NCBI GenBank assembly: GCA_051294905.1
Contig: CM119371.1
Span: 6,698,001 to 6,762,000, forward strand
Source: Botryllus schlosseri
Lineage: Eukaryota
Direction: 5' to 3'
Length of the DNA: 64,000 nucleotides
In this document: piece by piece, positions 9,036 through 45,594 of the stretch
Position numbering within the stretch: position 1 is the stretch's first letter
Layout of the letters: each line of letters starts with the position of its first letter
Notes under the pieces: model-generated
The model's input: the letters and a program-made list of their open reading frames with translations, nothing else
What the model was told of the DNA's origin: nothing
Databases searched by the model: none
Made by a program: the position numbers and the translations under genes

Positions 9036-10646
9036 CTATCTCTTCACAAATACGGATCTGTAAATGTCCATTTGTCTTGTAAATGTCCATTTGTCTTGCG
9101 ATGTATCATACTTTTCAATTGCCTTAGACGTTCTGAAATCTGCTACTGCAATAATCCACTTGTCAATGTGATATGCAGAAACCCACCCATGACAAGCATT
9201 CATAGAAGATAATGAAGTCCACTGAGATGAAGTAACATCATAGCATTCAACTGTATTGATGACCTTTCCACTCCATCCACCGATCACAAATATCTTCTGA
9301 TCAACTGCAACAGCACCACTCTCATAAACAGGATATCTCATTGGGTCGAGATCAACCCACTCTGACGAGGATGGAGTGAATCTGCTGAATGAAGAAACTG
9401 GAATAAGATCTTGTCCTCTACCTCCGATACAATAGATGGAATCATTCAATGATACGAGACTTGCTGCACAAATCCCTGTAGGTTTGTCTTCTAGCTGAAT
9501 CCATTGATTCACGGGTGGTTTAAATATTTCCACATCACATGTTGCTTCAAGATAACTTCCTCCGACAACGAGTATTGATCCTGACAAAGAAACTGAGCAA
9601 GGATCGGTTCCATGATCACAAATCATATCTTTCGTCCTTTCCCATTTTGAATTTTTGCTCTGAAAATTGAGTCGATGAACTGATCTATTCTCACATAAAA
9701 CGTAGATATACGAGCCTAGAGAAATTGCCGAAAAATTTGTTAAATTCAGAAACTTCTCATCATGAAACTTCTCTACTTTCTCTGTTACTGGATTGAAGGA
9801 TCGGATACAATCTGCCTTAGGATCAAAAAGAATTATCAATTCATCTTTTCCAATTTTTTCGTTTGTTTTGTGTGATGCTTTATACGTTTTCAAAAGATGT
9901 CCATTGATCAACTTGTACAGTCCAAAGTCGTTACTGATAACTACGTTTGATTCCAAAAGACATTCTAAAAATGCCGGAGAGACTTTATGAAACTTGATTG
10001 CTTCGAGACAATCGCGCAAATGTTCTACATTATTGCGATTTTTCTCAACCCAATTGAACAATACCGTTAGTTTTTCTTCTTCGCATAACTTTGATTGTTC
10101 CAACATCACATATTTGAGGAAGTTAGTTTTTTCAATGCTTCCAAATTCCGATTGATTTGATATTTCCATGATATTTTCAAGAAAAAACGCTCTACATCGC
10201 GTAGACACGGCATCCAGTCCATACATATCGGCGACATTTCTTGTAGAAAAGTAATTCTTAACATTAATTGATTCCACCAAAACGTCAGATATTGCCTGTT
10301 TCACATCTTCCAACTGCAACATGATCGCGACATGAATAAGATTATTCATCTTTTCTTCAGGAATCTCAAATCTGCCGGAATATATGAAATCAATGCAGCT
10401 TTTCACACACCGAGAATCAACGTCTTTCAAAACAACTTTTCCTTCACGATTCTCTTTTGTGTCGTGTTTTAACATAGCTTTGAAATAAGCACAACCAGCC
10501 AACAATACATTTCTGTGAGTGTAGTAGACATCATCTCCCACTTGAATTATGAAATCACAATGATCGTTTTCTTGCTTCATTCGATGTAATTCTTCCATCA
10601 TCTTCACTGAATGTTTCTCTACATTTGGACACACAATCTGCACCAT
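9036..10646 (-). CDS. Kelch-like protein (BTB-BACK-Kelch, putative CUL3 substrate adaptor), intron-less, copy 1
   Basis: Uninterrupted ORF; BTB motif CDFIIQVG..HRNVL..YFKAML..IDFIYSG; Kelch repeats IYCIGG, IFVIGG..VECYD...QW. ATG at 10646 (ORF track starts at upstream TTG). Confidence 0.92.
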   Translation of the reverse strand: MVQIVCPNVEKHSVKMMEELHRMKQENDHCDFIIQVGDDVYYTHRNVLLAGCAYFKAMLKHDTKENREGKVVLKDVDSRCVKSCIDFIYSGRFEIPEEKMNNLIHVAIMLQLEDVKQAISDVLVESINVKNYFSTRNVADMYGLDAVSTRCRAFFLENIMEISNQSEFGSIEKTNFLKYVMLEQSKLCEEEKLTVLFNWVEKNRNNVEHLRDCLEAIKFHKVSPAFLECLLESNVVISNDFGLYKLINGHLLKTYKASHKTNEKIGKDELIILFDPKADCIRSFNPVTEKVEKFHDEKFLNLTNFSAISLGSYIYVLCENRSVHRLNFQSKNSKWERTKDMICDHGTDPCSVSLSGSILVVGGSYLEATCDVEIFKPPVNQWIQLEDKPTGICAASLVSLNDSIYCIGGRGQDLIPVSSFSRFTPSSSEWVDLDPMRYPVYESGAVAVDQKIFVIGGWSGKVINTVECYDVTSSQWTSLSSMNACHGWVSAYHIDKWIIAVADFRTSKAIEKYDTSQDKWTFTRQMDIYRSVFVKR

Positions 10647-11634
10647 GCTTGTCAATCATCCACAATTGGCTATAATTATAGAGTGATCCTACGATTATTA
10701 TGATATAGTCAAGCACTGTTATTGAAGGAAAGATGATGAGTAGGGCGATTTTCTTGAGATGTCAATATAAGTCTAAATTGAAGCGCTAGGTCAAAAATTG
10801 TTCACAAAGTCAAAATTTGTGTGACCTCTGCATTTCGTTTGTCCAGTAGATTTTGCACTGTCGGTGAACTTATCATTGTCCGCTCATTGTGAATCATAAA
10901 TGGTATCAAGCAGACACTACTAATAAGCATTGGTCAGAAACGAAATTTATGAAATAGTCAAATAGCATACGTGTAGTCTACATGCACTTAGTCAAGTATT
11001 CAAGGACTTGGACTTGCAGTCTTTCTTAATCATTTGTTCGACCCAAGCAGCTGAGCTACAGTACATGTATTTTCAATTTGGTCAAGTGGGAAGCAGCGTT
11101 CGGTTATACTTACATTAATTACACAATTTAACGAAACCAGATAAACAACAACCTGATATTATTCAAAACACTGAGGCGAAGTGTAGATGTCAAACAAGCA
11201 GTAGTAACTAAAGCGAAAGAATCAAAACTTCTGTACAATATCATCTATACATAGTGACCATTAGAATATGCAACCTAAATTGCATATTTTCCTTAAGTAA
11301 AAGAAACCGTTATTGGCTTTGGGAATAGTGAGGATTAACACATCTGCGAAATGCAGTGGTTCTTGACCTTTTCATGGATGCAGCCCAATTTTCATTTCGC
11401 AAATATGCCATGATCCACAACTCAGCCTCAATTTCTATCTAAGCGGTGGCAATATGGCAGGTTTAGAGAGGTGACCTATGTAATGGGTGTTACATCACAA
11501 TTCCCTTGTCATTGACATAAGTTATTGTTCAACTCAATAGCAGGTTGTAAATTGAGCATGGGGCGTCAATATCATTAACGAGCGGCACAGTGAAATTTTA
11601 CGATTCTTCAAGGGATATCTGGACCTCGACAACT

Positions 11635-11830
11635 AGAACTTTTCAGATTTTTCAAATTAGGGCAAAATCAGAATAATAGCTACACTGTTTTTTTTCAAAT
11701 TAAGGGTAAAATCAGAATTATAGCTGAACATTATTTTCCAAACTAGATAAAAATTAGAAATATAGTTACACTTTTTTCCAAATTATATTAGAATAGCCGA
11801 GTTCACGAAAACTTGGACATTAAATCAAGT
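11635..11830. repeat. Degenerate ~38-bp minisatellite
   Basis: ttttcaaattagggcaaaatcagaataatagctacac-like units; related tracts at 4720-4860 and 14210-14360. Confidence 0.55.
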
Positions 11831-14472
11831 TCAGTTCATATCAAATCATCGTTGCGAGCACGATAAAGTCAAATGTCTGTACCGCAAGCTTAGCTCGTTT
11901 TGAGCTATACAGTTCTTCTGTAGCATTTGCAGGAAAACCGGAAATTAGATTAGAATAAAAATTAGAGAATAAAAACATTTCCGAAATTTCCGAAAGGAAA
12001 TATTTCACGCATTCGATAACTTGCATTTCAACCTAATTAGTCAAATTGGACAACTAAAATTATGTAGTTGTTCAAGAAGGTCTGGACAGTCTCCGCCTTT
12101 TTGGGTCAACTGTTTGATTTGGAGTCCGACTCGAGTTGTTACTTGGTGACTGCAGTGCGCTTCGCCCGGTCACTAGATGTTGACAAATTGAAGGAGGCGC
12201 TTATTGTAAGGAGTTCACGACAAATGTGAAATTTTGTCGGTGTCTGCTTCTGTGACAACCTGCGATCCAGTGATGGGGCTGGGGTTTGAATTTTACGACC
12301 TCTTCGTTTGGCTGCTTTGAGCCACCACATTCTTACTCCCCTTGAAACTTCGCCAGGTTTGCACTGCTTCACGGCCTCCTTGTTCTGCAAAAAATAGTAG
12401 TGAGTCAGTCAATGCTAGCATTGGAATCGCAGGCTGATAAGGTATTTCGAGAAAGCATCTTCTAGAGCAGTGGTTCTCAACGGGGGGTCTCAAAATAGTT
12501 GATAAGCTAATTTGTATTTTTTCAAATTCGGAAAATCGCTTCATTACTAATAAAACTCCAGAGCTGACATCAACAGAATGGCAGTCAGAGGTGAAATATC
12601 GGACTGTGAAGACTCATATTAATTGCTAAATTGCCGATAACCTACGCATACATACATTTTACTGTTAGGAGATGTTTTGTTGGATGAATAAGGTCAAGCA
12701 TGGTGACTCCGAAATGTTTAAAAAAAAACATTTTCTCCTTTGATAACCATTTTTCAATAATAACTTCAAGATAAGCTGCTAGATAGAAATGATCACGATT
12801 GACGTTATATCAGGAGCGTGTAACTTCTCCTCCAGGTCAGATATGGAAAAATTAGGTACTAGGAGGGTCGGATTCTTGAATTGATACATGAACTGCGTAT
12901 TTATCCAATCCACCAATATATCTATTGTAACCTTCAAGTTCAAAGTAGAGACCAAAACGGTGATTATTGGATTATTCGTAATGTAATTCGATAGCTGTTG
13001 AAGTCAATGAGACATCTGTGGTAATCAAAGTTGTCAAAAAGTTCTTTAAACTCTGGCTGCGTAGAAACCCATGGGAGAGAATGCAAGTGAACGTCAGTTA
13101 TTAATGTTTGTGGTAGAAAATGTTTGCTCACAACTGTATGTAGACCCGCGCGGGTCACGTTATCATGGGAGACCGGAGACTGTTCGTCAATTTTAGTGTC
13201 ATATTTATTGCGTTCATACCCAAATGAGTCGTCGGAAGCGTTACGCTTTATTATTACATTCGCATTCACATAGGGTTAGCCTCTACGTCCTGTTTTTTCA
13301 GGTTTTTGAAAACGTCCTCCGAGGACGCCTAAATGTCCTGCATTTTGGCAATTCGTCCTCCTTTACAGCTTTTACAGGTAAGATAATGGATGAATTCGAG
13401 TGAAAACGTGCATAAATGATGCTAAATAAGGAATTCGTGGTTCGATCGAAAGTGATGACCTGTTTTTTCAAGTCAACACCACCAATTTTAAGTAAAAAGT
13501 GTGTAAAACGGGATTCGAACGAAAGTGATGACCTTTTATTTAGTCGAGCAACCCTCAAGTCAAGAAAAATTTTTGACGTTTCTTCCGAATGTTACTCCAG
13601 TACTGTAAGTCTGAAAATTTTGAAAAAGCTTCCTCTTTTCAGATTTCCAAAATATGGTAATGATAACCCTACTTGAAAAGCAATAATTTACTCATACTGG
13701 AGTGAACTTTGCATCGCTACTTTTACTTGGAGTAGCTTTTTCGATCATTTACGATCACGCATACGGGCTCATGCAATCGCAGATTGTTATTCTTATTCTT
13801 ACTAACTTTTCCGAAACAGCTAAGAGATTTTACTCCTGTGCAATATTTATTGCATGATTTCTTTGTCAGCTCGGAATGAGTAAATACTGGATTTAGACGT
13901 AGGTAGAATGCAAATATTGGTATGCTCATGTCACGAGAGATAGCATGGTCCTATGAATATCTGTGGGATTTCATACTGAAATCTACAACAACGCGGACAG
14001 AATGTTTTCTATATATTTGTTACACTGTTTCCAATTCTGGACATGTCACAATATTTCGGAGTAACTCACCTGAAGTCATAACGATTCCTGAAAATCTTGA
14101 TATTGAGATCTTGTCTTTTGGCTGGTGCTGACAAGGTCTGGAAGAAAATCTCACAATTACACAGCCGGAAAATGGACTTGAACTAGATTGGACAACTGGA
14201 AAATTCTCAGCTTATCCAAATTATATTAGAGTTGCAGCTACATAGATTTTCCGAATTTGCGTAGAATCAGAAGTCTAGCTATACAGTTATTTCCAAACTA
14301 GATTTGAATTATAATTATACTCAGCTTTGTCCCAATTAGATTAGATTAGAATGACTGAATTTGCTAAAACTTTGATATTGAATCAACTTCCGTTAATATC
14401 AAATCATGGTTCAATCTTAGGAGCATGACTTGAGTATAGCATGTTGCATGAGAATAGCAAATGTCTGTAGAG

Positions 14473-16873
14473 CAGTGGTTCTCACCCTTTATGTCTTCAT
14501 TCCCCACTTGAGATTATTTCTGAGCCTTTATTCCTCACTACCCAAAACTTTGGTCATTTTGGAGCAGCTATTTGCTTGTTTGAACACACAATACACACAA
14601 CCATACCAGTACGCAAGACAATCACCTGTAACTGCAACATAAAACCTTCTGTGAACGGATACCGGCAACCCTCAAAATTTGGGGAAAGCGTTATTTCAGG
14701 TCATGCTGGATGCGTTTGTGACACCATGTTTGGCTATCCAGAGTTAAAAATGAGTTTTTGTGAACAACACACAATATTATTTCCGCTACATACATTTCAG
14801 AGCAGTTAACTGGTATCGGTAATTGTGAATGTATCTCCGTAAATATGTAGACCAGTGATTCCCTCAGATAGCCTTATTGCGGCCCCCAAAATATATTAAG
14901 AAATTTATTTATGACAAAAAATAAAATTTATATTTATAAAATACTCTTGCTTGGTTTGGCCTCTGTAGTTTTTAATTATAGGATTGCAGGAAAGTTGTGA
15001 GTGAGACTGCTAACGTTACGTTACTGCTGTTTCAATGCAATGTGCCCTAACTTTTAAGTTGAACGGGCAGTAGCTATAGATATAAATAGGTATTGATAAC
15101 TTTCAAAACCGGAGCAAAATCCTGATAAAATGGTAAATTTTCCCCACTTTGTGGTCGCTTGACTAAAAAAGAAAAAGAGGCTCAACTCCCGGAAAACACA
15201 GTTTTTCTTTCACATTAACAGTTGGTTGACCGAAAAAAGTCAACTTTCCGGTCAAGCTTCCGAAATAGTCGCCGTAGCGTTCCCACAGTGCTGACTTAAT
15301 GTATATCAGTCGAATTTGGCCCTATATGTAACCGAAATCCCAAAAATAAGACAAAATCTCAAAAAAGAAGACATTTGGGCGACCTCCGAGGACAATTTAA
15401 AATTAAATCGAAAAAGAGGACAAATCATCTTAAAAGAGGGCGTATGGTAATTCTATGATAACTAGATGTGCAACACCTGACTCGCGGTTGAATACACCGA
15501 GAGGCATACTGCTTAGCCGGCTAAAATCAGCATAATTAGTAGTCCTATAGTCAGGGCCGTAGCTGTCGCACCCCAAACCCCCCAATTGAGCGGGGCCGAG
15601 CTCGAAGGGGGCCCAAAATTATTTCGTGAGTTAGCATAAATTAAAGAGTATTTTTTGAAAATTTATGCAACTTTTTCAAAAAAAATTCGCGCTTTGAGCG
15701 ATTTCAATTCGCTACATATCTTGATTATTGGGTACTCTCCCCCAACGTTTTAGGCAATGTAACATGTGACTCCAAGAAGTGCGTCAGAACGATCGGCAGC
15801 GAGAAAGTATTGGCCGTAAAGGACTGCTTCGAAATACCAAAAAAATCGTTATACATACAAAATACATATAGGTTTAATTGTCCATACAGGCACCTAAATT
15901 ACTGGTGCCGAATGTTCTTGTCTTGACGATCTGAACTTCACAAGACAAATACCATCCCGCAGGAAAGAAAATTATATGACAGTGAATAAATACCAATGTA
16001 AAATCGTGTGATCTTTCAGTTTAGTAGGTTTGGGCAATTCTACATTTTTTGATATAGCAGACAGGAAAACATCATGTAAAGAAGTCATGCCTAGAGGTTC
16101 TCCCGCCCGAAGATGTTTAATTTTAGGGGGTCTGCAGTTTCAAAGACACCTCTCACTCAGCTCTACCGGTAAATCTGATTACGTGGGCAAAGACGACAAC
16201 GATGCAATCTCCGATCTTATACACCGATTTTATCATGAATTATTGAAATATTTCCGCGTCGCGCTGTCTCACTAAACAGTACAACTTTAATTTCGTGGCA
16301 AAAGCGAACAACGTGATGCGGGGTCAGTTTATCACCCTATAGGAGCCTGGTATCCTGACGAAGTGCTGTTACGTTCCTGCCAACGGGTATACCCCCGGAG
16401 AGGTTTAATTACTATTGAGGGGGCCTATACCTTTTCAAACACACCTCACTTAGGTCAACCGGTAAATCAGTTTACGTGAACAGAGACAGGATGAAAATTG
16501 ATAGCAATACATGCAATTCCCGATCATATTGACCGATTCAGTCATGAAACGAAAGAAATTTCTCGCGCTTCGCACGTTTAGGCGGGAAAATCTGATTCAC
16601 TCAACGGACACCCAATGCAGCAGATAAGTAGCGGTAAACAGTGTACAGTTTTGAAATCTCGTCAGGGCAATAAAACTACTCCGAAATAGCCACGATGACT
16701 GTTTGGTATTCGCTATTCGTGCGGCCCCGACCGTACTCTTAAATTCTAAATTTGGCCCTCACACCGAAAAAGTTTGGGAACCACTGATGTAGACTGTCCT
16801 GTAGCCTATGCAGTCATTACCAAATGGGTCAATTCCACACCAGAAACCTTCCAATTCCCAACGGGAACTACTG
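14473..16873. mobile_element. hAT MITE containing a nested hAT element at 14853-16786
   Basis: Outer cagtggttctc / gggaactactg with TSD ctgtagag; inner cagtgattccc / gggaaccactg with TSD atgtagac. Confidence 0.8.
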
Positions 16874-17258
16874 CTGTAGAGCAAGCATGGCTCGTTTCGC
16901 ACTACTATACAGTTCTCCTGTAGCATTTACAGGAAAACCAGAAAGTGGATTAGAATTAAAATTAGACCATAGAAACGGTTCACAAATTAGATCAGAAGTA
17001 GATTACCGGTACCAGCATGTAGGAAGATTTCTTTGGTTATTAGACTCTGCCCTGTGCCCAATGTCACATCAACGATGTAATCAACTATCCCATAAAAGAG
17101 TTCAAGCATTAAAGTTACAACTTGGTTGAATCTGATGCATAGAAAATCCTTGCCCGTGATGATAAAGAAAGGATACACCGGGTTACAAACTATTCAAATC
17201 TGAACTTTACAGTCAGAGTCAACCAATGTGTTACCTGTTGTTACAGATAAAAATTAGG

Positions 17259-17692
17259 TTGGGTTACCATGCTTTGGAGTCGGGAAAGGAGGACACTTCT
17301 ACCAAATCATAAAACTTAGTTTCAGAACAAAACTGAAAGCAGCAGAATTTGCTATATTCACTGGAAATTATGTTGAGTTCATTACAAAAAAAGATCATCA
17401 CTTTTACTAGACTTCTGGTTTACCCAATTTTTAATTGAATTTTGTGGTATTCACTAAAAAAAGATCCCCACTTTCATGTAGCTTCCGAATGACTCTCTCG
17501 AACGTCCGTATTGCCTATTTCAGGTTATTTATGTCGATTTTCAGTTGAATATGTTTGTTCTTCTAGCTATAAAAGCTGTAAAGGAGGACCGATTGCTAAA
17601 AAGGACGACATATACTCGTCCTCGAAGGACATTTCTAAAAACCTGAAGAAGGACGAAAAATCCTTCCTAAAGGAGAACGTATGGTAACCCCA
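17259..17692. mobile_element. MITE with gggttaccat / atggtaaccc termini
   Basis: Imperfect 8-bp TSD aaattagg/aaatcagg; absent at the paralogous sites in units 1 and 4. Confidence 0.65.
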
Positions 17693-18300
17693 AAATCAGG
17701 TCGTTACTTGTGATTGAATTGAGTTTATTGAGAATAATTGTGTCATTTCAAAACACCCCACCGCACCTTAGCATTGATGGCAAATAATCGAATCCAAAAT
17801 CATTCATAAATTCAGAATTACTCACTTTCATCTCCCGAATTGAACTGTCAGACATTGATGCATGTCGGATTCCAACTGATTGAGATTGTCATGCAAACTT
17901 CTTTTATCACCAAAGCCACTTCCCATCGTTATAAGTTATGATATTGTGATTGCAATCCACTGTAAAAAATTGAAAAGAGTGGTTATGAAAAGTAACATCA
18001 ATGAATGTATTGTATATACACCACAGGTTGCTCAAACCAGGCTATCGTACAAGATGTGGTAGATAACGACTTGCCGATAGTCGCCTCATAATCAAAATGG
18101 TTTGTTAAGTAACATGGAAAAAATTCGGATTTCTTGATCATGGATAGCAAACAAATAATGACACACAATAAAGACAACAAGATAAATCAAAATTACATCC
18201 GATTTAATTTCGTACTAGGATATAAAGTTGTAACTTGGCTCAAAAAGTGGCTCAACAAGGAAGACATCCACAATTTTTTGAAATTTTCATGCATTGAATC

Positions 18301-19396
18301 CAGGGATATCTAGAACTTCTAGATCAGTGGTTCTCAACCTTTTTGTCTTCGCGGACCCCTTTTGAACCGTCACGGACCCCGCGGACCCCCCGAAGATTCA
18401 GGTCAAATTTAGCTCAATTATCATGCAATCGTCATCTGTCTTCTGAAAATGATAACTGTAGGGTAGTGATAAAAAGCAACAAAATGACCTTTCTTGGAAA
18501 TAAATCGTACTATTTTTGTAGAAATAGGGTTGACTTTATATTTCAAAGCGAACTCTGCAACCGCCCCAAAGATTCACTTCAAATTTACCTCTTTTATCGT
18601 GCGACCGTTTTCTGGCCCCTGCAAATAACAACTGTATAGGATAGCAATAAACAGCAACGAAGTGACCACTGACGATTCTTGAGAAAAACATGCTAGCCGT
18701 TTATTTATGTAGAAATTGGAAATACTTTTATTAATTTGAAGGAAATTCTGAAGAGAAATATTTTGAAATGCGTGAGCGTGTCTTGAAAATAAGCGCCTTC
18801 AATTCGGTATAAACGAGCGTTGAAAATCCGTTTTCACAAAGAGAGGTGGTGGCGAATGTAATAACGTAACATAACGTAACGCTTTCGACGATACATTTGG
18901 GTGTGATAGCAACAAATATGGCACCGAAATTGACAAACTAATTTTTTCATTGAACATATACCGTCCAGCCTTGTCATTTCTATGGTAGTAGCTCATCTTG
19001 AAGTTATTATGGAAAAATGGTTATGAATATCACAGGAGAAAAAGGATTTTTATAAACATTTCCAAGTCACTATGATTGACTAATCAAACTTTTTATTTTT
19101 ACACAATCTCCAACAAGACACCTCCATACAGCAAAATATTTGTATCAGTAAGCTATTGGCAATTTAGCAATTAAAATGAGTCTGCGCAGTAGGATATTTC
19201 TTATCAGACGGTCATTCTGTTTATGTGAGTTCTACTAGTAATGAAGCGAAACTGTGATTTTCCTAAATAAAAAAACTCAAAATGAGGTTATCAACTATTT
19301 CGTAAATTTAGAGGCTTCGCGGACCCCCTGAAAATGCTTCCAGGACCCCCGGTTGAGAAACGCTGTTCTAGATAGTTCTAGTTCTAGATATCCCTG
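18301..19396. mobile_element. Miniature P-like element (47 bp net) carrying a nested hAT MITE
   Basis: cagggatatctagaac / gttctagatatccctg termini, 8-bp TSD attgaatc; site is empty in unit 1 (~7605). Confidence 0.8.
18325..19365. mobile_element. hAT (Charlie/Buster-like) MITE
   Basis: cagtggttctcaacc / ggttgagaaacgctg; TSD ttctagat. Confidence 0.85.
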
Positions 19397-20211
19397 ATTG
19401 AATCATTGAATGCAGTGGGTTATTTCATACTGAATTATTGGAAGGGTAAAACTTATGTGACTTACTGTAAACAATAGATTCCCAACTCCTGATAAGGGCC
19501 ATATCACCCTAGAGGGATCAATTGTGCAAGTCGTCAAAACGAACAACCATATCTATATTGGGTAAGGTAGTAAATATATGATGGGCTGCTCGACTAGAAT
19601 TACTGGCATGATTATGAACTTTTGTACAAGTCTTGAAGAATATTTCCACAAAATTACTGGCTACTATTGCTATCACATTCATCAAATGATACGAATCTAC
19701 CGAAAAGTAGTTTATATGAAAAATTGAACATACGGATACAAAGTTCTGCCGATTTGAAACAAAAAAATGCACAATAGTTCTGCCGATTTGAAACAAAAAA
19801 AATGCACAATCTTGAACGCAATTGCCGTATGATGCATATAGCTTCATGAGGTGATATTTTTATTCATGTCTCGGCTGCAGATTTGTACAAACTACCAATC
19901 CAGTTGGTTTATGGCCAAAAGTAGTTACAGATGCAAATTTCAAAGCAAGCAGTTTAGCGTGAATAGAGATACTGGTGTTCTGTTGTGTGACGTTCTTGCA
20001 GCTATTGCTAGCTTGGCGTCAACACTACTAATAATAATGGCGTGGCCAGGGAATGGGTTTTGAGGGTCAAAAACTGTCCATTTCGAACTCCAAACCTTCA
20101 AACACAGATTCTGTCTCCAAGTCAGAGTAATTTGCATTAGAAGTACCCTAATGCACTCGCTTAAGAACTGAAAATCCAATAATTGCACAAGTTTGCTCAG
20201 TTGAGTGCAAT

Positions 20212-23931: not shown

Positions 23932-23933
23932 AT

Positions 23934-32701: not shown

Positions 32702-33890
32702 CAGTGTTTCTCAACCGCCGGTCCGCGGACCGGTGCCGGTCCGCGACGACATTCCTGCCGGTCCGCCAGGTATATTACAATTTTATACCTTAATTTCAAG
32801 ATGTAGTGTTGGAGGCGACAAGTACAGAAAAGATACGAGCTGACTCATCGCTAAACAGTCAGCTTGCGCGAACATTCGTTTTTGATTCATTCATATTGTG
32901 CGGGAACGTAACTGAGGCACCGCAAACCGCCCAATTGGAGAGGGACCGAGCTTGAAAAGGGCCCAAAATTATTCGGCAAACGAACATAAATCACAGCGTA
33001 CTTTTTTGAAACTTATTCCAGCACTTTTCAATTTCTTTTCGCGCGATTTGATGTCACCAAAAGCCTTCCTTCTAGGTGCCCTATTATACGCATGCCATTA
33101 CCGCGCCACGACGTACCAACACATAATGAAGTTCAGGCAAACATGGGACTCCAAAAGTTGTACCAAAAATTCGGCCGCAAGAATACCGATTCAGTCATTA
33201 ATGACAGAAAATTTTCGCTACTGGCGCGATTAAGCTATATAAACTCTCTGCTTACAGTGAGTAGAATGAATGTAGTCACAGGTACAGGTGAACACATCCA
33301 CCGAACTGACGGGTCTGGGGGCAAAGCCCCAGGACGTTTGGCTTATCGCCCTATGGGGACCCCAAGACCAGCGTTTTTTGGGTGAACTGACGAAGTAATA
33401 TTTCGGTCCGATTTGCGCGTGGTCGGTGTAGCTGCTGCATTGTATTCGTAGTTTCCAGAGTAGCCTACATATGGTGGCAGTGGGCAATGAGCAAGGTAGC
33501 CTGGCAAGGTGCTTCGTTCTACTCCGAAACGCCCCTTCTCTCGATTTTGTCAAAGAGAAGAATATTATTCGTGTTGGCGTGGTCGGTTATACGCACGGCT
33601 TTCGGCGCGAAAGACTGTAAACAACTCTCGGCGGTAGCACGTTCATCTGGACAAGGCAATTTTATTTCGACTCAGCAGACTCACTACCATAAAAACACAT
33701 GGATGCAATCATGAAGATAATTAATTACGATCAAAACTCTCTAAATGTCACACTCTAGCACCATATAAATGCAAGAAACGGTTGCATACTTGACATTTTG
33801 GTTTCATTTCAATTTTGAAAATTAACCGGTCCGCCAGGCATTTTTTGAAATTTTACCGGTCCGCGAGGTGAAAAAGGTTGAGAACCACTG
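32702..33890 (+). mobile_element. hAT MITE (ggtccgcgg subterminal family)
   Basis: cagtgtttctcaacc / ggttgagaaccactg; flanked by atgtagac on both sides. Confidence 0.85.
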
Positions 33891-33898
33891 ATGTAGAC

Positions 33899-36159: not shown

Positions 36160-37761
36160 ATGTAGACAACATTGTCAGAATGAAGCAACACGATGTGTCA
36201 CCAGCAGTGTACACACAACTGCAGTCTTGTCAGCCAAAACTGCTGCTGTTGAACGTCCTTGGTAAATTTCTTAGTAAGGACATGCACTATCTACCCAAGA
36301 ATATAGGAAAGTATCTCTCGTTGTACTACAAAGAATTTTAATTATTTCTACCATAATACATATTGTAACCACTGAAATTCTTCTTAGGGCCAGATTTCGT
36401 TAAAATATTGTTTTTTTTCAAGTAAAAAGTTGCCTGTTTCTAAGCCAAAAACGTTTTTTCAGCCCAAAATACCTCGTTAGGACAGCCAGTTCCAACCAGA
36501 AATGAAGATAAGTGGTACAATTTTAACATTTTGTGGGAAAACGCCCTACTAATAAGCATTGGTCAGAAATGAAATTTATGAAGTAGTCAAATAGCATACG
36601 TCTAGTCTACATGCACTTAGTCAAGTATTCAAGGACTAGGACTTGCAGTCTTTCTTAATCATTTGTTTGACCCAAGCAGCTGAGCTACACTACAAATCTT
36701 TATAATTTGGTCAAGTGGGAAGCAGCATTTGGTTATATTTACATCAATTTTACAATTTCACTAAACCAGACGATGTATTTACTCAGCCCCAGTATCATAG
36801 CATAATTACAAAAATTGCAACAATTTGTGACTGCATCACAAAGATGAATATTGCGATTTTCATCCTCTGTGCAAGTGAATTGAATTTAAAAATGATGTCC
36901 AATTTTATCTATATCATTACTATCATTGGCTGCAGCCTAATTTCCATCTAAGCGGCAGTAATATGGCAGGTTTAGGCCAAGCAGCTCATATCAAATCGGT
37001 TTATACTCAAGAGCATGAGAATGGCAAATGTCCTTACCACAAGCTTAGCTCGTTTCGAGATATACAGTTCCTCTGCAGCATTCACGCGAAAACCGGAAAT
37101 TAGATTAGAATTAAAATTAGAGCATAGAAACATTTCCCAAACTAAATCAGAATTAGAGCAAGGAAACAATACACGAATTAGATTTCTGGCATTTCAATCT
37201 AATCAGTATAATTATACAACTAAAATTATGTAGTTGCCCAAGTCTGTCTGGACGGTCTCTGCCTTTTTGGGTCAACTGTATAATTTGGGAGTCCGACTTG
37301 GATTGTTACTTGACACCCGCAGTGTGCTTCGCCTGGTCACTAGGTGTCGACAAAGTGAAGTGAAGGAGGCGCTTTTCGTAATCAGCTCTCCTTTGACAAA
37401 TTTGAAATTTTGTCGGAGTCTGATTCCGTCGTCGTGACAGCCTGCAACCCAAGCAGGGGTCTGGGGTTTGAATTGTACTAATTCTTCGTTTGATTGGATG
37501 CTTCGAGCTGTCAGTCTTACTCCCCTTGAAACGTCGCCCGGGATAGGGCCAGTTCAGGTTCATCTCAATCTGCGAAAAATATGTAAGGGGTCAGTCAATA
37601 CTAGCATTGGAGTCACAGGATTTCGAGATGGCATCTACCAGAGCGAAACTAGCGCATACTTAGCTTTTAGAGCAGTGTTACAATATCAGCTGACTGACTT
37701 GAACACTCTACATTAGCAATAGCATGATGATAACACCAACTATGGCACAACAATGAACTAG

Positions 37762-38215
37762 TAGGATGGAGTGGAAAATGGAAAATCTTGTATTTCAAAA
37801 TGGACACTTGATATGTGGTGCCAAATATCAAAAAAATAATTTCTATAATAATTATATGCTCATGCACACTCTAGTGGTAGTGCAATTTCACCGAACGTGC
37901 CAAAAATAGCTAATTTCGCTATATATTAATGACCGCTTCCGCTATAAAGCTGATTTTGCGTTTAAAAGACGCGGAAGCAGCAAGTTTCTGTCTCACTTCC
38001 ACAGAACTTCGTCTTAAAAATGAACAGAAAAAAGTTGCAAGCAAATTATTGATTTTCAGGCCGTTTTTCGGTAAAATTAGGCACTGAAGCAGTGGGTATG
38101 ATGCCAAAAGCATGTAGTGATTGATCTTATGACTGACAACTCCATATTGAGAGCACATGAATTGCAAATCCATATTGAAAACACAAAAGCATCAATTTTA
38201 TATTGAAAAAAGATA
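37762..38215. mobile_element. Truncated terminal fragment of the same hATm-like family
   Basis: Aligns with 41183-41640. Confidence 0.7.
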
Positions 38216-38219
38216 AAGT

Positions 38220-39927
38220 CATTGCACATTTTGACTCGAGTCAAGTCAAGTCACTCAATTTTTGAAGGTGACTCGAGTCAAGTCAAGTCACGAGTCAAGT
38301 CACAATTCAAGTCATGTTGTCTTTTCGAAGTATGAGGCATGATTGCGTCATTGCTGTCTGAAATACAGATTGAATGGTTATTGATTCTGAACCGATGAAC
38401 GAATATAGAGTTAACTATACGCAAGAAGGCGCTGTATCGCTCACATACACGTAGATGTTTGGTCAAGGTAAGAACAGAGAACAGAAATATATCTTTTGCT
38501 ATTAAATTACTTTACTACCAGTTTAGGACAGAACGTAAGCTGTAAGCTTTCATCACTTCGTCTGTGATCAATTTATTTGTGAGAGAACAATGACGGCTCA
38601 GTAAAACGCACAATCATTGACTGAATGGTCACTCTCACGGGTTACACCAGCGTTTTGAGAACAATTCGAACATATGCATGATACAGTGATTTTTATCGAC
38701 ACCGATTACTTGATGACTTGAAATTGACTCGTGAATTTTGCTCCGAGTCACGAGTCAATCCACAGTTCTGATGCGCCGAGTCAAGTCAATTCAAGTCATT
38801 TTAGCAAAGTGACTCGAGCATACGGGCCGGACTCTAATTTTCCTTAGGTATACGGGTTCGGTGATGTCACAAAGGGATGACGTCATAATGTGAGAGAATT
38901 GATAATTAGGGTTAAGTACGCCGCAAACTCCGATTATATAATCTCCTCGTGTTGACGAGTCCAGAAGTGCTGTCAATTAGCGAGGCCCTGATCTCTCGCG
39001 AACAATTCAATATGTGCGCTTATCAACACGTATTACGTAACCTCGGCGACAATTTGCGTAAGTCAAAATGCCCGAGTTTTTATGGAATCTGTTCTATATT
39101 GGCACCGATTTCAGGTTGTTCAAACCTTGAATCTTTGATAACTCAAACCTTGACACCCATCTTCTGATGGTTATGTTCAAGTATTAGCGGAAATCAATAA
39201 CGAATGCGCACACGCACATATTTGCGGAAATTCTGATGTCATTCAGTTTTGCGATGTCACACTTTAATCACAATCGCTAATCAGCATACACTTAACGGCA
39301 TTGTCTCAAATCCATCGAAAGATAGGAGCCAACGCATGCTAGGCCCATGACGCGATAGTTAGGTCATCGATGATATCTTTCGTACCAGGCCTATTGCAGA
39401 TGCGATTCTGTGGGCCAGCGATGATATCGTGCGCAACAAGCCAATGCAAATGTGATTGCGCAGGCCAGCGATAGTATACTATAGTGCACACAGGGCCCAT
39501 TGCAGATGCGATTCTTCAGCGGAACTAGGCTTGTTGGAGACGCGATAAATCGGGCCAGCGACGAATGCCGAGCGCGCGGCAATCAATGACCCAATTTCGT
39601 GATCATCTCAGCGGGAGATCGCATCACGTTACATAGTGCATGTGCTTTGCACAGACGAATCTCGCTAATTGGCAATACGCTTCTCGCTAATTGGCCGCGC
39701 GATCACATAAGCGGCAACACATAATGTTGTAAACAGAAATGCATTGCGATTTGTTCTAAATAGCACAATTTACGTTTATGCCGTTACATGTTAAACAAAA
39801 TTCTAGAACAAAGTCTAGGTATGCGCGGCATACCTTGCATACCCAGGTTCGGCGCCTATGGACTCAATTAAAGTCATACGAAAAAAGTGACTCGAGTCAA
39901 GTCATGACTTGAGTCATCCCAACACTG
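38220..39927 (+). mobile_element. gagtcaagtca-family MITE interrupted by a cata...tatg element (38819-39860)
   Basis: Aligns with the 35161 copy; insert flanked by gactcgag/gactcaat. Confidence 0.65.
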
Positions 39928-40039
39928 GCAGACACGCACGGTTTAATCTGTTTATACAAACTGGGATAGTAAATTAAAAACTGGTATCACTATGTTAACT
40001 TCAGTAATCAATTCTTAAATAGCTCTAGGTTGGTGCGAA

Positions 40040-40567
40040 TAGAATGTACTTGTCCGGGGCCCTAATTGTAGCTTGAACGCAGCCGGATAAAACTCACCGT
40101 GAATGAGAATTGGTGAACTTGCTTGAAAAGTTGCAACTCGCTAATTGAATCTTATTGAAAGAAAATCTTTGCTTGTGATGATATGTCAGATTCCGACTGA
40201 TTGACAATGGTAGAGATTGTCATGCAAACTTCTTTTATCACCAAAGCCATTTCACATCCGACAAATAGACCATTAAATGATATGTTATCCTATATCATGA
40301 TATTCTGATTGCAATTCACTGTAACAAAATCAAGAGTGGTTATGAAAAGCAAATAAATGAATCTATATACACCATCGTATCAGAAGATGTGGTAGATATC
40401 GAGTTGCCGATAGTCGCCTCATAGAAACAAAATCGAAATGGTTGGTTTTAAGTATGCGTAAAAATCCGGTATCTTGATCATGGATAGCGAAAAAATTAAA
40501 CCTTTTTATTCGCCGCACTCAAATTCATCAAAAACAATAAAAATAACAAGATAAACAAAAATTTCAT
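40040..40567 (-). pseudogene. 5' fragment of glycoprotein-like ORF, unit 3
   Basis: MKFLFILLFLLFLMNLSAANKK from ATG at 40567; aligns with 6650-7398 with an internal deletion. Confidence 0.4.
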
Positions 40568-41182
40568 CCGATTTTATTTCATGCTTAATCATTGTTAACG
40601 CACGATTCTCAAAAAATAAGATAGACATCTATATATAAACTTGTAACTTAAGCTCTGGTTTTTTCATATTGAATTATGTGATGTGTACAGCTTATGAGGC
40701 CTACAATAGGTTCCCAACTCCTGATATTAGCCATATAACCCTTGTGGACTGAGTTTTCCAAGTTATTAAAATCATCGATCATATTTAGCCTATATTGAGA
40801 AAAATATGTGATGGGCTGTATCAACAGAAAATGCCGACAGTAATCACGGTATTATGCACTTTTGTATATTTCCACAAAATTACAAGTTACTATTGCTAAG
40901 ACATTCATCAAAAGGCACAAATCTACCAAAAGTAGGTTCCACATGCCAAACTTTGAAAAACTGGACCTACAAAGTTCTGTCGCTTTGAAACATAAAATGC
41001 ACAATCTTCAAGGCAATTATGATGGATTGGGAATGAAATGAATCAAAAATTGCAATCGTGAGCGACTTTATTTTTTATTCATGTATCAGCTGCAAACTTG
41101 CAGAAACTGCTGATCTAGTTGTTTGACTTTCAAGAGTAGTCCTGGTTGCAAATTTTGAAAGTGAGTAGTTTGACATGAATAG

Positions 41183-43730
41183 TAGGGTGGAGTGAAAAAT
41201 GGAAAATTTTGAATTTCAAAACGGACACTTGATACGTGGTGCCAAATTTAAAAAAAAATAAAAATTCTGGGCCCGTTTTTGGGCCCTTGCACCCTCTAGT
41301 GGTCGTGCAATTGCACCGAACGAGCCAAAAATAGCTAATTTCGCTATATATTGATGACCGCTTCCGCTAGAAAGCTGATTTTGGGCTGAAAAGATGCGAA
41401 AGCAACAAGTTTCTATCTCACTTCCACAGAACTTCGTCTTAAAAATGAACAGAAAAAAAGTTACGTGCAAATTTTTGATTTTCAGACCATTTTTCGGTAA
41501 AATTACACACTGAAGCAGGGTACGAGGTCAAAAGCGTGTAGTGATTGATCTTATGACTGCCAACTCTATATTAAAAGCAGATAAATTGCAAATCCATATT
41601 GAAAACATAAAAACATCAATTCTATATAGAAAAAAGATATATTTCGAATATGGTTTCACTACCAGAGTATTAGTATGCACAAACTTTAAAATCTTGTTTC
41701 GTAATAAAGGATTTCATCTATTTTGAGACTTCAGTTTTTCGCTGATTAAGACATCTCTACGGTTAAATCCCGACACATGGGCAGATGATTCGATCACCAC
41801 TTTAACGTCTCTTTCCACTGCCTGGTTGTGCCAGGGATGTATGAGGAGATGACCTTAGATTTTCCATCTCGAGATATGGCGAGTTTTTGATTGCTGGTGG
41901 CTGTTCCATATCTTTTAGATTCAAGTTGACAATTCAGTGGTATGATTTGGCCTTGATGTATATAATTGGGATTTTAAACAATCTGATTCTAGTGTCAACG
42001 TTGTTTTTAGGTTTCGTTTCATTAACATATCCTCCTTCAGTCGCTAATTGGAATCTGGTATTCTGTTTGATCTGCTCATAGTTGTAATCTTGCAAGTCTT
42101 CCGAGGCCTTCATCATCATCACCGAGCATTCCCAAAAAACATTATCCGGATGTGCTAAATATGCTTTTCGTTGTAGCAAAGGTAGTGCAAGGTTGTGAAT
42201 TTGTGTATCAGAAAGCTTTGTAATATGGGAAACTATATTGCACAAGTTTTAGCACCAGCAACAATTGTGACTTTTTATTTCAAACCATGACGGAAAATAA
42301 AACTCCATGCAGAATTAAGCAAGATAGTTCAGATTGCTTGATGGATGACTCTGTTGCACATGTATGCTATGTATAGAACGTCAAAATTTGGCATGTTCTA
42401 TGTGAGACAGAGTCATCCATCAGGTAATCTGAACTATCTTACTCAATTCTGCATGGAGGTTTATTTTCCGTCATGGTTTGAAATAAAAAGGCACAATTAT
42501 GGGTGATTCAGTCCCACATAGAACATGCCGAATATTGAGTTGCTATGTGCGACAGAGTCATCCATCAAGCAATCTGAACTATCTTGCTCAATTCTGCATT
42601 GAGGTTCATTTTCCATCATGGTTTGAAATAAAAAGGAACAATTCCATTGTTGATGGTACTAAAAACTTCTGCAACATAGTTCCCCATGTTACAAAAGCTT
42701 TCTAATACACAATTCGCAACCTTGCACTATCTTTGCTACAACAAAAGGCATGTTTTGCCCATCTGGGAATGCTCGGTGATGATGATGAAGGCCTCAGAAG
42801 ACTTGCAAGACTACACCTATGAGGAGATCAAACAGAATGTTAGATTTCAATTGACGACTTAGAAGGAGGATATGTTAATGAACCGAAACCTAAAAACAAC
42901 GTTGACACTAGAATCAGATTATTAAAAATCCCAATTATAAACATCAAGGCCAAATCATACCACCAAATTTTCAACTTGTATCTAAAAGATGCGGAACAGC
43001 CACCAGCAATCAAAAACTTTTCATATCTCGAGCTGGAAAATCTAAGGTCATCACCATTAAGGATCAATCATCCTTTGCACAACCAGGCAGTGGAAAGAGA
43101 CCTTAAAGTGGTGACCGAAGCATATGCTGATTGCCCATGTGTCGGGATTTGAACGTAGAGATGGCCTGATCACACAAAAACTGAAATCTCGAAAGCAGAT
43201 GAAATCCTTTATTACGAAACAAGATTTTAAAGTTTGTGCATACTAATACTCTGGTAGTGAAACCATATTCGAAATATATCTTTTTTCAATATAGAATTGA
43301 TATTTTTGTGTTTTCAATATGGATTTGCAATTTATGTGCTTTTAATACAGAGTTGTCAGTCATAAGATCAATCACTACAAGCTTGTGGCATAATAGCGCC
43401 TGCTTCAGTGCCTGATTTTACCTAAAAACAGCCTAAAAATCAATAATTTGCTTGTAACTTTTTTTCTGTTCATTTTTAAGACAAAGTTATGTGGAAGTGA
43501 GATAGAGACTTGTTGCTTCTGCATCTTTTAAGCCCAAAACCAGCTTCCTAGCATAAGCGGTAATCAATATTTTGCAAAATTAGCTATTTTTGGCTCGTTC
43601 GGTGCAATTGCACGACCACTAGAGGGTGCACGGGTCCAAAATTATTATAGAAGTTATTTTTTTTTAATTTGGCACCACATATCAAGTGACCGTTTTGAAA
43701 TTCAAAATTTCCATTTTTCACTCCACCCTA
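41183..43730. mobile_element. Palindromic hAT (hATm-like, TAGGGTG termini) derivative made of two diverged 3' ends
   Basis: tagggtggagtgaaaaatggaaa / tttccatttttcactccacccta; 8-bp TSD atgaatag; both arms carry transposase C-terminal remnants (SWFEIK, HNQAVERD.KVV.E, RRDGLI.QKLKSRKQMKSFITKQDF). Confidence 0.82.
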
Positions 43731-43959
43731 ATGAATAGTGATAAGTGGTGTTCTGTTGTTCGACATTCTTGCAGCTATTGCTAGCTTGGAGTCAACACTA
43801 CCAACAATGGCATACCAGGGAATGGGTTTTGAGGGTCGAAAGCCGTCCATTTCGAACTCTAAACTATACTTTTGAAACACAGATTTCCAACTCAGTAATT
43901 CGCATTAGAAGTACTGCAGTTGCTTCAGAACTTAAAAACCAGTAAATTGTACAGTCTGC

Positions 43960-45594
43960 TCAGGTGAGTGCAATCTCTCTCTTCACAAATACAGATCTGT
44001 AAATCTGAAAACATCTATCTACTTTTGGCGTCACTATAGTCCATTTGTCTTGTGATATATCATACTTTTCAAGTACATCAGAGGTTCCGGTTCCTCCATA
44101 TGGTACTGCAAAAATACACTTGTCCATGCGATACGCAGAAACTAGACCATAACAAGCATTCATAGAAGATAATGAATTCCACTGAGCTGAAGTAACATCG
44201 TAACATTCTACGTTGTCGACATTATTTACTTCATTTATTCTTCTGCTCATCCCACCGATTACAAATATCTTTTGATCAACTGCAACAACACCACTCCCAC
44301 GTACAGGATATCTAATTGGTTCGAGATCCTCCCACTTTGATGAGGATGGAGTGAATCTGCAGAATGAAGAAACTATGACACCATCTGGTCCTCTACCACC
44401 GATACAATAGATTGAATCATGCAACGCTACGAGACTTGGTGAGCGAATTGCTGTAGGTTTGTCTTTTAGTCGAATCCATTTATTCACAGGTGAAGTAAAT
44501 ATTTCCATGTCACTTGTTGCGTTAGTATAACTTCCCCCAATAACGAATATTAATCCCGACAATGAAACTGAGGGAGGAGTCCTTCCATGGTCACAAATCA
44601 TATCTTTCATCTTTTCCCATTTTGGATTTTTGCTCTGAAAATTGAGTCGATGAACTGATTTATTCCCACATAAAATGTAGATATGAGAGTCTAGAGAAAT
44701 CGCCGAGAACTGTTTTAAATTCTTATACTTCTCATCATGAAGATTCTCTACTTTCTCAGTTACTGGATTGAAGCATCGAACACAATCTGCGTCATCATCA
44801 AAAAAAATAATATCTTCGTAGGTTTTATGTGATGCTTTCAAAGCTTTCAAAAGATGTCCATTGATCAACTTGTACACTCCGAAATCGTTTGGGTTTGATT
44901 CCAAAAGATATTCTAAAAATGCCGGAGAGACTTTATCAAACTTGATTGCTTCGAGACATTCGCACAAATGCTCCTGATTTTTCAGATTTTTCTCGACCCA
45001 ATTGAACAATAACGTTAATTTGTCTTCTTCGCATAACTTTGATTTTTCTGGGGTCACAAATTCGAGAATGTTGGTTTTTTCAATACCTCCAAATTCAGGT
45101 TGGTTTGATATCTTCATGACATTTTCAATAAAAAATGCTCTACATTGCGTAGAGAGCGCATCCAATCCATACATATCGGCGACATTTCTTGTGGAAAAGT
45201 AATTCTCTACGTTAATTGATTCCTCCAAAATGTCGGATACTGCCTGTTTCACATCTTCTAACTGCATCATGATCGCAACGTGAAGAAGATCATTGATCTT
45301 TTCATCAGGAATCTCAAATTTGCCCGAATATATGAAATCGATGCAGTTTTTCACACACTGAGAATCGACCTCTTTCAAAACGACTTTTCCTTCGCGATTC
45401 TCTTTAGTGTCGTTTTTCAACATAGCTTTGAAATAAGCACAACCCGCCGACAATACATTTCTGTGAGTGTAATAGACATCATCTCCCACTTGAATTATGA
45501 AATCACAATGATCGTTTTCTTGCTTCATTCGATGTAATTCTTCCATCATCTTCACTGAATGTTTCTCTACATTTGGACACACTATCTGTACCAT
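43960..45594 (-). CDS. Kelch-like protein (BTB-BACK-Kelch), intron-less, copy 3
   Basis: Uninterrupted ORF collinear with copies 1 and 2; ATG at 45594. Confidence 0.92.
   Translation of the reverse strand: MVQIVCPNVEKHSVKMMEELHRMKQENDHCDFIIQVGDDVYYTHRNVLSAGCAYFKAMLKNDTKENREGKVVLKEVDSQCVKNCIDFIYSGKFEIPDEKINDLLHVAIMMQLEDVKQAVSDILEESINVENYFSTRNVADMYGLDALSTQCRAFFIENVMKISNQPEFGGIEKTNILEFVTPEKSKLCEEDKLTLLFNWVEKNLKNQEHLCECLEAIKFDKVSPAFLEYLLESNPNDFGVYKLINGHLLKALKASHKTYEDIIFFDDDADCVRCFNPVTEKVENLHDEKYKNLKQFSAISLDSHIYILCGNKSVHRLNFQSKNPKWEKMKDMICDHGRTPPSVSLSGLIFVIGGSYTNATSDMEIFTSPVNKWIRLKDKPTAIRSPSLVALHDSIYCIGGRGPDGVIVSSFCRFTPSSSKWEDLEPIRYPVRGSGVVAVDQKIFVIGGMSRRINEVNNVDNVECYDVTSAQWNSLSSMNACYGLVSAYRMDKCIFAVPYGGTGTSDVLEKYDISQDKWTIVTPKVDRCFQIYRSVFVKREIALT

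What the first reader, a model, noticed from the sequence alone, without database searches (positions are those of the whole stretch)
9036..45594. Intron-less KLHL paralog array with conserved BTB and hypervariable propeller loops
Seen: the N-terminal BTB regions are nearly invariant, while Kelch loop positions differ radically and carry indels: HGTDPCS/HGPIPRA/HGRTPPS; GGRGQDLIPV/GGSRQDHVIV/GGRGPDGVIV; YES/CAS/RGS; GGWSGKVIN/GGWDGGKELN/GGMSRRINEVNNVD; ACHGWV/DRHYRV/ACYGLV; ADFRTS/TDGETS/PYGGTGTS. All three ORFs remain intact amid decayed surroundings. Known: BTB binds CUL3 and propeller loops bind substrate; a similar pattern is described for nematode F-box and MATH-BTB families. Inference: a diversifying substrate-recognition repertoire, possibly immune or anti-transposon.
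Basis: partly seen in the sequence, partly recalled or inferred. Interest (0 to 1): 0.7.

Follow-up and report, generated by a model that had tools for sequence, protein, structure and literature searches.

The report
Diversifying Kelch adaptor array in sea-squirt
Three intact, tandemly duplicated genes of a sea-squirt-specific family of BTB-Kelch proteins keep their scaffold end conserved while the few residues lining the target-binding pocket change faster than neutral, a pattern known from nematode and plant ubiquitin-ligase adaptors; what these proteins bind is unknown.

Summary
Three open BTB-BACK-Kelch genes (9036-10646, 20212-21840, 43960-45594, minus strand, 76-77% identical) sit in repeated ~10-kb units, so they arose by tandem duplication, and the array probably runs past both window ends. 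The named close relatives are all Styela clava proteins (24-30%), and public reads point to tens of family variants, some transcribed. On an AlphaFold model dN/dS is 0.18 in BTB, 0.35 in bottom-face loops and 1.04 in binding-face loops. As a class those loops are no faster than neutral. The 12 codons equivalent to Keap1's pocket-rim contacts give dN/dS 2.7-3.3 (p 0.0002-0.003; picked after I had seen the alignment) and are invariant in conserved KLHL controls. Whole-gene selection tests weaken when multi-base mutations are allowed. Best reading: a birth-and-death family of CUL3-type substrate adaptors whose pocket is under diversifying selection (0.6). Relaxed drift is the main rival (0.25). 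CUL3 binding is untested, and the phi-x-E motif has a polar Thr at phi. An immune or anti-transposon role was neither shown nor testable. It is a new ascidian example of a known evolutionary pattern.

The parts
9036..10646 (-). Gene A, single-ORF BTB-BACK-Kelch protein, 536 aa
20212..21840 (-). Gene B, single-ORF BTB-BACK-Kelch protein, 542 aa (the modelled copy)
43960..45594 (-). Gene C, single-ORF BTB-BACK-Kelch protein, 544 aa; GAG where A and B have the stop codon, so five extra residues
21466..21777 (-). BTB domain of B (residues 22-125); dN/dS 0.18 for residues 1-128
21646..21654 (-). phi-x-E position of B: Thr63-Lys64-Glu65, invariant in A, B, C; Glu canonical, phi polar
21157..21441 (-). 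BACK domain of B (residues 134-228) with the two 3-box helices at its start; dN/dS 0.41
20218..21036 (-). Six-blade Kelch propeller of B (residues 269-541), closed by the C-terminal strand
   Evidence: (23 propeller strands of 3 or more residues listed plus a short one, pLDDT 89-98 by block)
20797..20802 (-). Pocket-rim codons 347-348 (TD / PI / RT in A / B / C; LS in an expressed paralog)
20659..20664 (-). Pocket-rim codons 393-394 (CA / CD / RS)
20515..20520 (-). Pocket-rim codons 441-442 (YE / CA / RG); repeat-equivalents of Keap1 Ser363/Ser508 and Arg415
20374..20379 (-). Pocket-rim codons 488-489 (GW / YR / GL)
20929..20934 (-). Pocket-rim codons 303-304 (TN / KQ / KQ)
1355..8440 (.). Copy of the inter-gene spacer (blocks X, Y, Z) left of A; block X lies next to the 5' side of each gene, implying a further gene left of the window
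   Evidence: 70-87% identity to the other spacer copies; the further gene is inference
10647..20211 (.). Spacer copy between A and B
21841..43959 (.). Spacer copy between B and C, swollen by insertions (about 22148-36545 and 41183-43730)
56973..62866 (.). Spacer copy (blocks X, Y) right of C, implying a further gene right of the window
   Evidence: the further gene is inference
9059..9098 (-). Exact 19-bp tandem duplication near the 3' end of A; the loop is 15 bases shorter than in B and C and the frame is kept

Best explanation
A tandem array of an ascidian-specific, multi-copy family of BTB-BACK-Kelch proteins that work like CUL3 substrate adaptors. SHOWN: three intact genes made by duplication of a ~10-kb unit; purifying selection on BTB, BACK, propeller strands and bottom loops; fast change confined, within the propeller, to the face that binds substrate in solved KLHL structures; dN/dS above 1 at the pocket-rim codons (set chosen post hoc); many more variants in the species; transcription of family members. 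INFERRED: the BTB dimerises and docks on CUL3 through BTB and 3-box; each paralog's propeller binds a different or a changing ligand and hands it to ubiquitylation; new copies are kept when their pocket gains a new specificity. The ligand class is unknown. Fast-evolving foreign or selfish proteins (pathogen, transposon) are the classic guess; I give that about even odds against fast-evolving host partners such as germline or allorecognition proteins.
For: Architecture and fold: (mean pLDDT 94.4); top Foldseek matches are KBTBD2-CUL3 and KLHL22-CUL3 complexes. Frame kept: homologous flanks carry 49 frameshift-length gaps in 3920 aligned bases (12.5 per kb), about 20 expected per gene pair, none seen. 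dN/dS by class: BTB 0.18, BACK 0.41, strands 0.41, bottom loops 0.35, top loops 1.04; top differs from bottom p 9e-5, p 0.001 with multi-base mutations. Twelve pocket-rim codons: dN/dS 3.3, 3.2 and 2.7 with none, flank-calibrated and free multi-base rates, p 0.0002, 0.0005, 0.003; with six GG+1 codons added 2.7, 2.4, 2.0, p 0.0002-0.014. Those 12 positions are 3-4 of 12 identical among A, B, C but 11 of 11 in all 6 pairs of a conserved KLHL group and in a frog KLHL36 pair at the same 76% overall identity. Whole-gene M2a p 0.0007, 0.005-0.03 at flank-calibrated multi-base rates. 16-51 and 18-70 contigs per listed coding position in two contig sets; RNA reads across the ORF in both RNA runs laid, one strand only in the single-cell run; 17 reads show a fourth loop variant.
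Against: Top loops as a class are not above 1 (p 0.8; outgroup-variable top positions 1.46, p 0.02, falling to 1.1-1.25, p 0.23-0.66, with multi-base mutations or without the gapped loops). M2a p 0.17 for the whole gene and 0.79 for the propeller with free multi-base rates; propeller alone p 0.09-0.28 at calibrated rates. The pocket set was chosen after seeing the alignment and is the best of 24 offsets scanned; multiplied by 24 the p values are 0.006, 0.011 and 0.07. Only three sequences; differences cluster along the gene (runs test p 0.004), which gene conversion would give and which biases site models. The site-model signal outside the propeller survives the multi-base correction (p 0.004), so fast sites are not confined to the pocket. 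phi is Thr, not hydrophobic. Only 12 of 616 and 6 of 1767 RNA reads are 99% or more alike to the B stretch, so B itself is not shown to be expressed.
Confidence: 0.6

Rival explanations
1. Genomic drift with relaxed constraint: copies multiply in a duplication-prone genome, selection keeps a folded, dimer-competent protein, and the pocket loops drift because redundant copies have no essential substrate.
For: Top-loop dN/dS 1.04, and three-way-different columns match full neutrality (16 seen, 15.2 expected). Site-model significance is lost with free multi-base rates. Hua et al. 2011 (PMC3030570; abstract and passages) argue this for lineage-specific plant F-box genes. Unchecked earlier notes describe other amplified, decaying families in this genome.
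Against: Pocket-rim codons exceed 1 under all three mutation models. Bottom loops, also surface loops, stay at 0.35. BTB at 0.18 and no frameshift in three genes show continued selection. A second, unrelated KLHL group shows the same pocket-focused divergence.
Confidence: 0.25
2. CUL3-independent scaffolds or decoys: the proteins dimerise through BTB and bind diverse partners (cytoskeletal, germline) through the propeller, without acting as ubiquitin-ligase adaptors.
For: The phi position is polar (Thr, Asn, Val at most) across the ascidian clade while Glu is kept; a charged residue at phi abolished CUL3 binding in SPOP (PMC6484134 passages). The pea aphid's ~200 kelch paralogs are described as actin-binding-type genes (PMC2826372 passage).
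Against: Glu65, Ala57 (equal to KLHL3 Ala77 and SPOP Ala227 by spacing), the alpha-5 segment matching Keap1's and the two 3-box helices are kept. In vaccinia A55 the phi residue was not critical.
Confidence: 0.12
3. Processed retrocopies or young pseudogenes that happen to be still open.
For: No coding introns; transposon-rich surroundings.
Against: Several kb of flank are duplicated with each gene in the same order; synonymous divergence is 0.22-0.30 yet no stop or frameshift; BTB dN/dS 0.18. An ancient retroposition that founded the family is not excluded.
Confidence: 0.03

Closest known systems
KLHL/KBTBD BTB-BACK-Kelch CUL3 adaptors (Keap1, KLHL12, KLHL22, KBTBD2)
   Same: Domain order, six-blade propeller with C-terminal closing strand, 3-box helices, Glu of phi-x-E; best sequence and fold matches among solved structures.
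   Different: Only about 15-26% identical to the solved ones; no one-to-one ortholog in the tree; multi-copy, no coding introns; pocket residues vary where conserved KLHL groups are invariant; phi is Thr; the GG motif is present in three blades only.
Styela clava 'kelch-like protein 3/12/20/24/28/30' (automatic names; e.g. XP_039264566.1, XP_077971152.1)
   Same: Same divergent clade (35 of 83 rows, SH-like support 98), similar length, same polar-phi motif.
   Different: 24-30% identical to B; the window's genes form their own recent sub-expansion, nearest relatives unnamed Logan proteins at 41-51%.
Nematode F-box and MATH-BTB expansions (Thomas 2006, recalled; not held) and monocot MATH-BTB
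   Same: Conserved cullin-binding end, diversifying substrate-binding end, birth and death in clusters; proposed pathogen role (PMC4063957 passages; PMC3030570 passages).
   Different: Different domains (Kelch propeller rather than FBA/FTH or MATH), a chordate host, tens rather than hundreds of copies on present evidence, no functional link to infection.
Pea aphid kelch expansion (~200 lineage-specific paralogs)
   Same: Lineage-specific multiplication of kelch genes in an animal (PMC2826372 passage).
   Different: Independent expansion; the passage read gives no selection analysis.

Membership tests
KLHL/KBTBD BTB-BACK-Kelch family | BTB + BACK + Kelch repeats in that order | tested here: met
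   Pfam BTB 75-81 bits, BACK 46-48, Kelch_1 88-98, all above cut-off in 3 of 3 proteins
KLHL/KBTBD BTB-BACK-Kelch family | Six-bladed propeller closed by the C-terminal strand | tested here: met
   AlphaFold model of B, pLDDT 94.4; KLHL12 Kelch domain matched at target-normalised TM 0.83
CUL3 substrate adaptors | phi-x-(D/E) motif in the alpha3-beta4 loop, phi hydrophobic | tested here: inconclusive
   Thr63-Lys64-Glu65 aligns to Keap1's Leu-Arg-Glu: Glu met, phi polar; the motif's weight differs between adaptors (PMC6484134)
CUL3 substrate adaptors | 3-box: two helices after BTB | tested here: met
   Helices 132-142 and 145-157 in the model; definition from PMC3597819 passages
CUL3 substrate adaptors | Physical binding to CUL3 and substrate ubiquitylation | not testable with these tools
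Birth-and-death cullin-adaptor repertoires (F-box / MATH-BTB type) | Lineage-specific multi-copy family in clusters | tested here: met
   Tandem units; tens of contig variants per site; ascidian-only named clade. Genome-wide count not possible (no genome held)
Birth-and-death cullin-adaptor repertoires (F-box / MATH-BTB type) | Purifying selection on the cullin-binding domain | tested here: met
   BTB dN/dS 0.18
Birth-and-death cullin-adaptor repertoires (F-box / MATH-BTB type) | Positive selection on the substrate-binding surface | tested here: inconclusive
   Pocket-rim 2.7-3.3, post hoc; loops as a class 1.04; site models depend on the mutation model
Birth-and-death cullin-adaptor repertoires (F-box / MATH-BTB type) | Role against pathogens or foreign proteins | not testable with these tools
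   No infection or cell-type data could be read

The most novel reading that the evidence does not exclude
Ascidians, the closest invertebrate relatives of vertebrates, carry a polymorphic repertoire of tens of CUL3-Kelch adaptors whose pockets are in an arms race with intracellular pathogen, transposon or non-self proteins: a ubiquitin-based recognition system of the nematode F-box type, built on the KLHL scaffold in a chordate, with a clade-specific CUL3 interface.
Probability: 0.25. Interest if true: 0.72.

Novelty: new member of a known kind. Interest (0 to 1): 0.42.

Why it matters
KLHL proteins are mostly treated as conserved, one-substrate adaptors. A chordate family whose pocket rim changes faster than neutral would extend the 'ubiquitin adaptors as innate recognition repertoire' idea from nematodes and plants to the vertebrates' sister group, and its single-exon genes and defined 12-residue pocket make it easy to test. 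If drift explains it, it is one more amplified family in a duplication-prone genome. The evolutionary pattern itself is known, so a specialist would find it interesting rather than startling.

Tried and rejected
No whole genome is held, so no genome-wide paralog set. The metagenome scan found no relative (260 pattern matches, none confirmed). The search for shorter proteins gave 2 hits among 460 candidates. No RNA holder was listed by the run index; raw reads were laid instead. No splice joint in an RNA run was among the 15 joints shown; 57 were not shown. The full maximum-likelihood tree did not finish; FastTree was used, midpoint-rooted, with long branches, so it shows clustering and not an origin. 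Thomas 2006 is not held. Paper searches that found no description of an ascidian Kelch expansion: kelch+ascidian+expansion+Botryllus, 0 papers; kelch+tunicate+'gene family expansion', 0; kelch+Ciona+expanded+BTB, 4 listed, none on this by title and abstract start; kelch-like+Botryllus, 4, one read in passages and naming only a 'Kelch-like protein 10' transcript up in fertile colonies, whose relation to this family I could not test; Styela clava+genome+kelch, 2, off topic; two general searches. These cover open-licence main texts only; supplementary gene-family tables of ascidian genome papers were not seen and may list the expansion. Botryllus was a guess for the search; the species is not determined. 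Earlier-finding look-ups by sequence, place and words found no note on this family. Rejected: recent retrocopy or pseudogene reading; 'all loops are positively selected'; 'BTB invariant'. Summed contig depth was not used as copy number.
Full report
What is there. The window holds three uninterrupted ORFs on the minus strand: A 9036-10646, B 20212-21840 and C 43960-45594. They are 76-77% identical as proteins and each has BTB, BACK and Kelch domains above Pfam's cut-offs. There is no fourth copy or remnant in the window. The BTB region is 86-90% identical pairwise, BACK 77-80%, the propeller 69-74%; synonymous divergence is 0.22-0.30 depending on the transition weighting.

How the array arose. 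Self-comparison shows a repeated non-coding unit: blocks at about 1355-2627, 11143-12468, 36982-37644 and 56973-57912 match each other, as do blocks at 4278-7488, 13837-18156, 40034-40656 and 57916-62866, and blocks just 3' of each gene. Four spacer copies flank three genes, so these copies come from tandem segmental duplication and not from fresh retroposition, and further genes probably lie beyond both window ends (inference). The uneven spacing comes from later insertions: an element with terminal inverted repeats at 22148-28611 holding an LTR retrotransposon, a LINE at about 29315-32272, and large inverted repeats. In 11 homologous flank pairs, 3920 aligned bases carry 60 gaps, 49 of frameshifting length. 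At that rate about 20 frameshifts are expected per gene pair; the ORFs have none. The genes are under selection.

Whose genes. No genome is held. The best database relatives are unnamed Logan proteins at 51, 44 and 41%. Of 28 proteins looked up, 8 carry a name and all 8 are Styela clava 'kelch-like' proteins, 24-30% identical to B. In a FastTree tree of 83 full-length rows, A, B and C form one group (support 100) inside a clade of 35 rows (SH-like support 98) that holds all 9 Styela rows and none of the named non-ascidian KLHLs (midpoint root, long branches). The host is most likely a stolidobranch ascidian (inference); unchecked earlier notes on this genome say the same. The species is not determined.

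Family size and expression. Laid on B at 80% likeness, two contig sets show 16-51 and 18-70 contigs carrying a different letter at each of the 28 coding positions listed, against 2-8 at the two flank positions 20069 and 20151 (40 rows shown, 709 not shown, best-supported kept, so these counts run high, and alleles, pooled animals and errors add to them). That points to tens of variants, not a firm copy number. Both RNA runs laid have reads along the ORF. In the single-cell run depth is 2-103 in one orientation and 0-2 in the other; 1766 of 1767 laid reads are second mates, which lie on the gene's strand, the sense read in the usual droplet libraries (recalled). Seventeen bulk reads leave B exactly after His345-Gly346 and continue with a fourth loop variant, LSPR in place of TDPC, PIPR or RTPP (translated by hand).

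Structure. AlphaFold with 82 sequences gives a confident model of B (mean pLDDT 94.4): BTB, BACK with two 3-box helices, a disordered linker and a six-blade propeller closed by the C-terminal strand. Best fold matches are KBTBD2-CUL3 and KLHL22-CUL3 complexes and the KLHL12 and Keap1 propellers. In solved KLHL proteins the substrate pocket is formed by the DA and BC loops on the narrow face (PMC3597819, passages). I classed residues by the model's secondary structure, not by their variation.

Selection. Fixed-class codon models give dN/dS 0.18 for BTB, 0.41 BACK, 0.41 strands, 0.35 bottom loops and 1.04 top loops; top differs from bottom (p 9e-5; p 0.001 with multi-base mutations). Top loops as a class do not exceed 1 (p 0.8), and their 16 three-way-different columns match the 15.2 expected under neutrality. 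Site models M2a and M8 are significant without multi-base mutations (p 0.0007), not with freely fitted ones (p 0.17). The free fit implies about 13% multi-base events, while the flanks show 95 adjacent mismatches against 78 expected among 547, about 3%. At rates near that the whole-gene p is 0.005-0.03 and the propeller-only p 0.09-0.28. A sharper test uses the two positions per blade that are repeat-equivalents of Keap1 Ser363/Ser508 and Arg415, which contact Nrf2 (PMC4668279, one passage; register). Ten of these 12 vary and 6 differ in all three genes; dN/dS is 3.3, 3.2 and 2.7 under the three mutation models, p 0.0002, 0.0005 and 0.003. I chose this set by the Keap1 rule but after seeing the alignment, and it is the best of 24 offsets; corrected for 24 the values are 0.006, 0.011 and 0.07. 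Differences are clustered along the gene (p 0.004), so gene conversion may bias these tests. Fast sites also occur in BACK and the linker, where the site-model signal survives the free multi-base fit (p 0.004); I have no explanation for that.

Controls. I examined 20 of the 63 rows of the control alignment at the pocket positions. A, B and C share 3-4 of 12. A conserved KLHL group (83-92% overall) shares 11 of 11 in 6 of 6 pairs; a frog KLHL36 pair at 76% overall shares 11 of 11; an unnamed pair at 70% shares 8 of 10. So pocket divergence is not what KLHL proteins generally do at this distance. A second unnamed group (P0008, P0011, P0012, P0020, P0023; 72-80% overall) shares only 1-3 of 12 in 9 of 10 pairs: the same pattern has arisen elsewhere, which supports its reality and lowers its uniqueness.

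CUL3 docking. The phi-x-(D/E) motif reads Thr63-Lys64-Glu65. Glu is invariant in A, B, C and kept in most of the clade; phi is polar nearly throughout it. A charged residue at phi abolished binding in SPOP but only weakened it in vaccinia A55 (PMC6484134, passages). Ala57, the alpha-5 segment and the 3-box are kept. CUL3 binding is likely but untested.

Comparison with what is known. By architecture and fold these are KLHL/KBTBD-family proteins with no conserved ortholog. They work like the nematode F-box and MATH-BTB repertoires proposed to target foreign proteins (PMC4063957, passages; Thomas 2006 recalled only). The drift reading of such families is argued by Hua et al. 2011 (PMC3030570, abstract and passages). 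A ~200-copy kelch expansion is reported in the pea aphid (PMC2826372, one passage). Five searches naming ascidians found no description of this family; supplements of ascidian genome papers were not seen.

Verdict. A real, intact, ascidian-specific tandem family with pocket-focused divergence. Diversifying CUL3-type adaptors 0.6, relaxed drift 0.25, CUL3-independent scaffolds 0.12, pseudogenes 0.03. The immune or anti-transposon role remains a guess. New member of a known kind; interest 0.42.

Noticed in passing
window 23681-28486: Young Ty3/Gypsy-type LTR retrotransposon: LTRs of about 250 bases, 96.9% identical, open 1127-aa pol (RT, RNase H, integrase), gag region interrupted by a frame break; nested in an element with 98% identical terminal inverted repeats (22148-22276 / 28483-28611) about 300 bases upstream of gene B's start, which may have cut B off from its promoter.
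   Followed up: partly
window 29315-32272: LINE with endonuclease and reverse transcriptase in three separate ORFs.
   Followed up: no
window 32815-35022, 41183-43730, 46827-50688, 56080-56648, 5360-5871: Several long, near-palindromic foldback-like stretches (67-92% arm identity); the one at 46827-50688 is built of 187/141/328-base tandem units; 41183-43730 interrupts the 3' flank of gene C.
   Followed up: no
window 21931-22140 (and the matching flanks of A and C): The sequence 90-300 bases upstream of the start codon is a very high-copy repeat (summed contig depth 10 to 50 times that of the ORF) shared by all three genes.
   Followed up: partly
B residues 79, 170, 181-182, 204, 211-212, 238, 255 (window about 21076-21606): Fast-changing sites in BTB, BACK and linker; the site-model signal outside the propeller survives the multi-base correction. 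A second binding surface is possible.
   Followed up: partly
B codons 1-60 and 311-350 (window 21661-21840 and 20791-20910): Low synonymous divergence (0.03-0.16 against 0.2-0.3 elsewhere), possibly gene-conversion tracts.
   Followed up: partly
proteins P0008, P0011, P0012, P0020, P0023, P0033 (unnamed ENA/JGI records): An unrelated KLHL group with the same conserved-BTB, divergent-pocket pattern; organism unknown.
   Followed up: partly
window 21347-21565: Peak of single-cell reads in mid-gene, probably internal priming at an A-rich stretch, or BTB-BACK-only transcripts of some paralog; a 266-aa relative lacking the propeller (P0073) exists.
   Followed up: no
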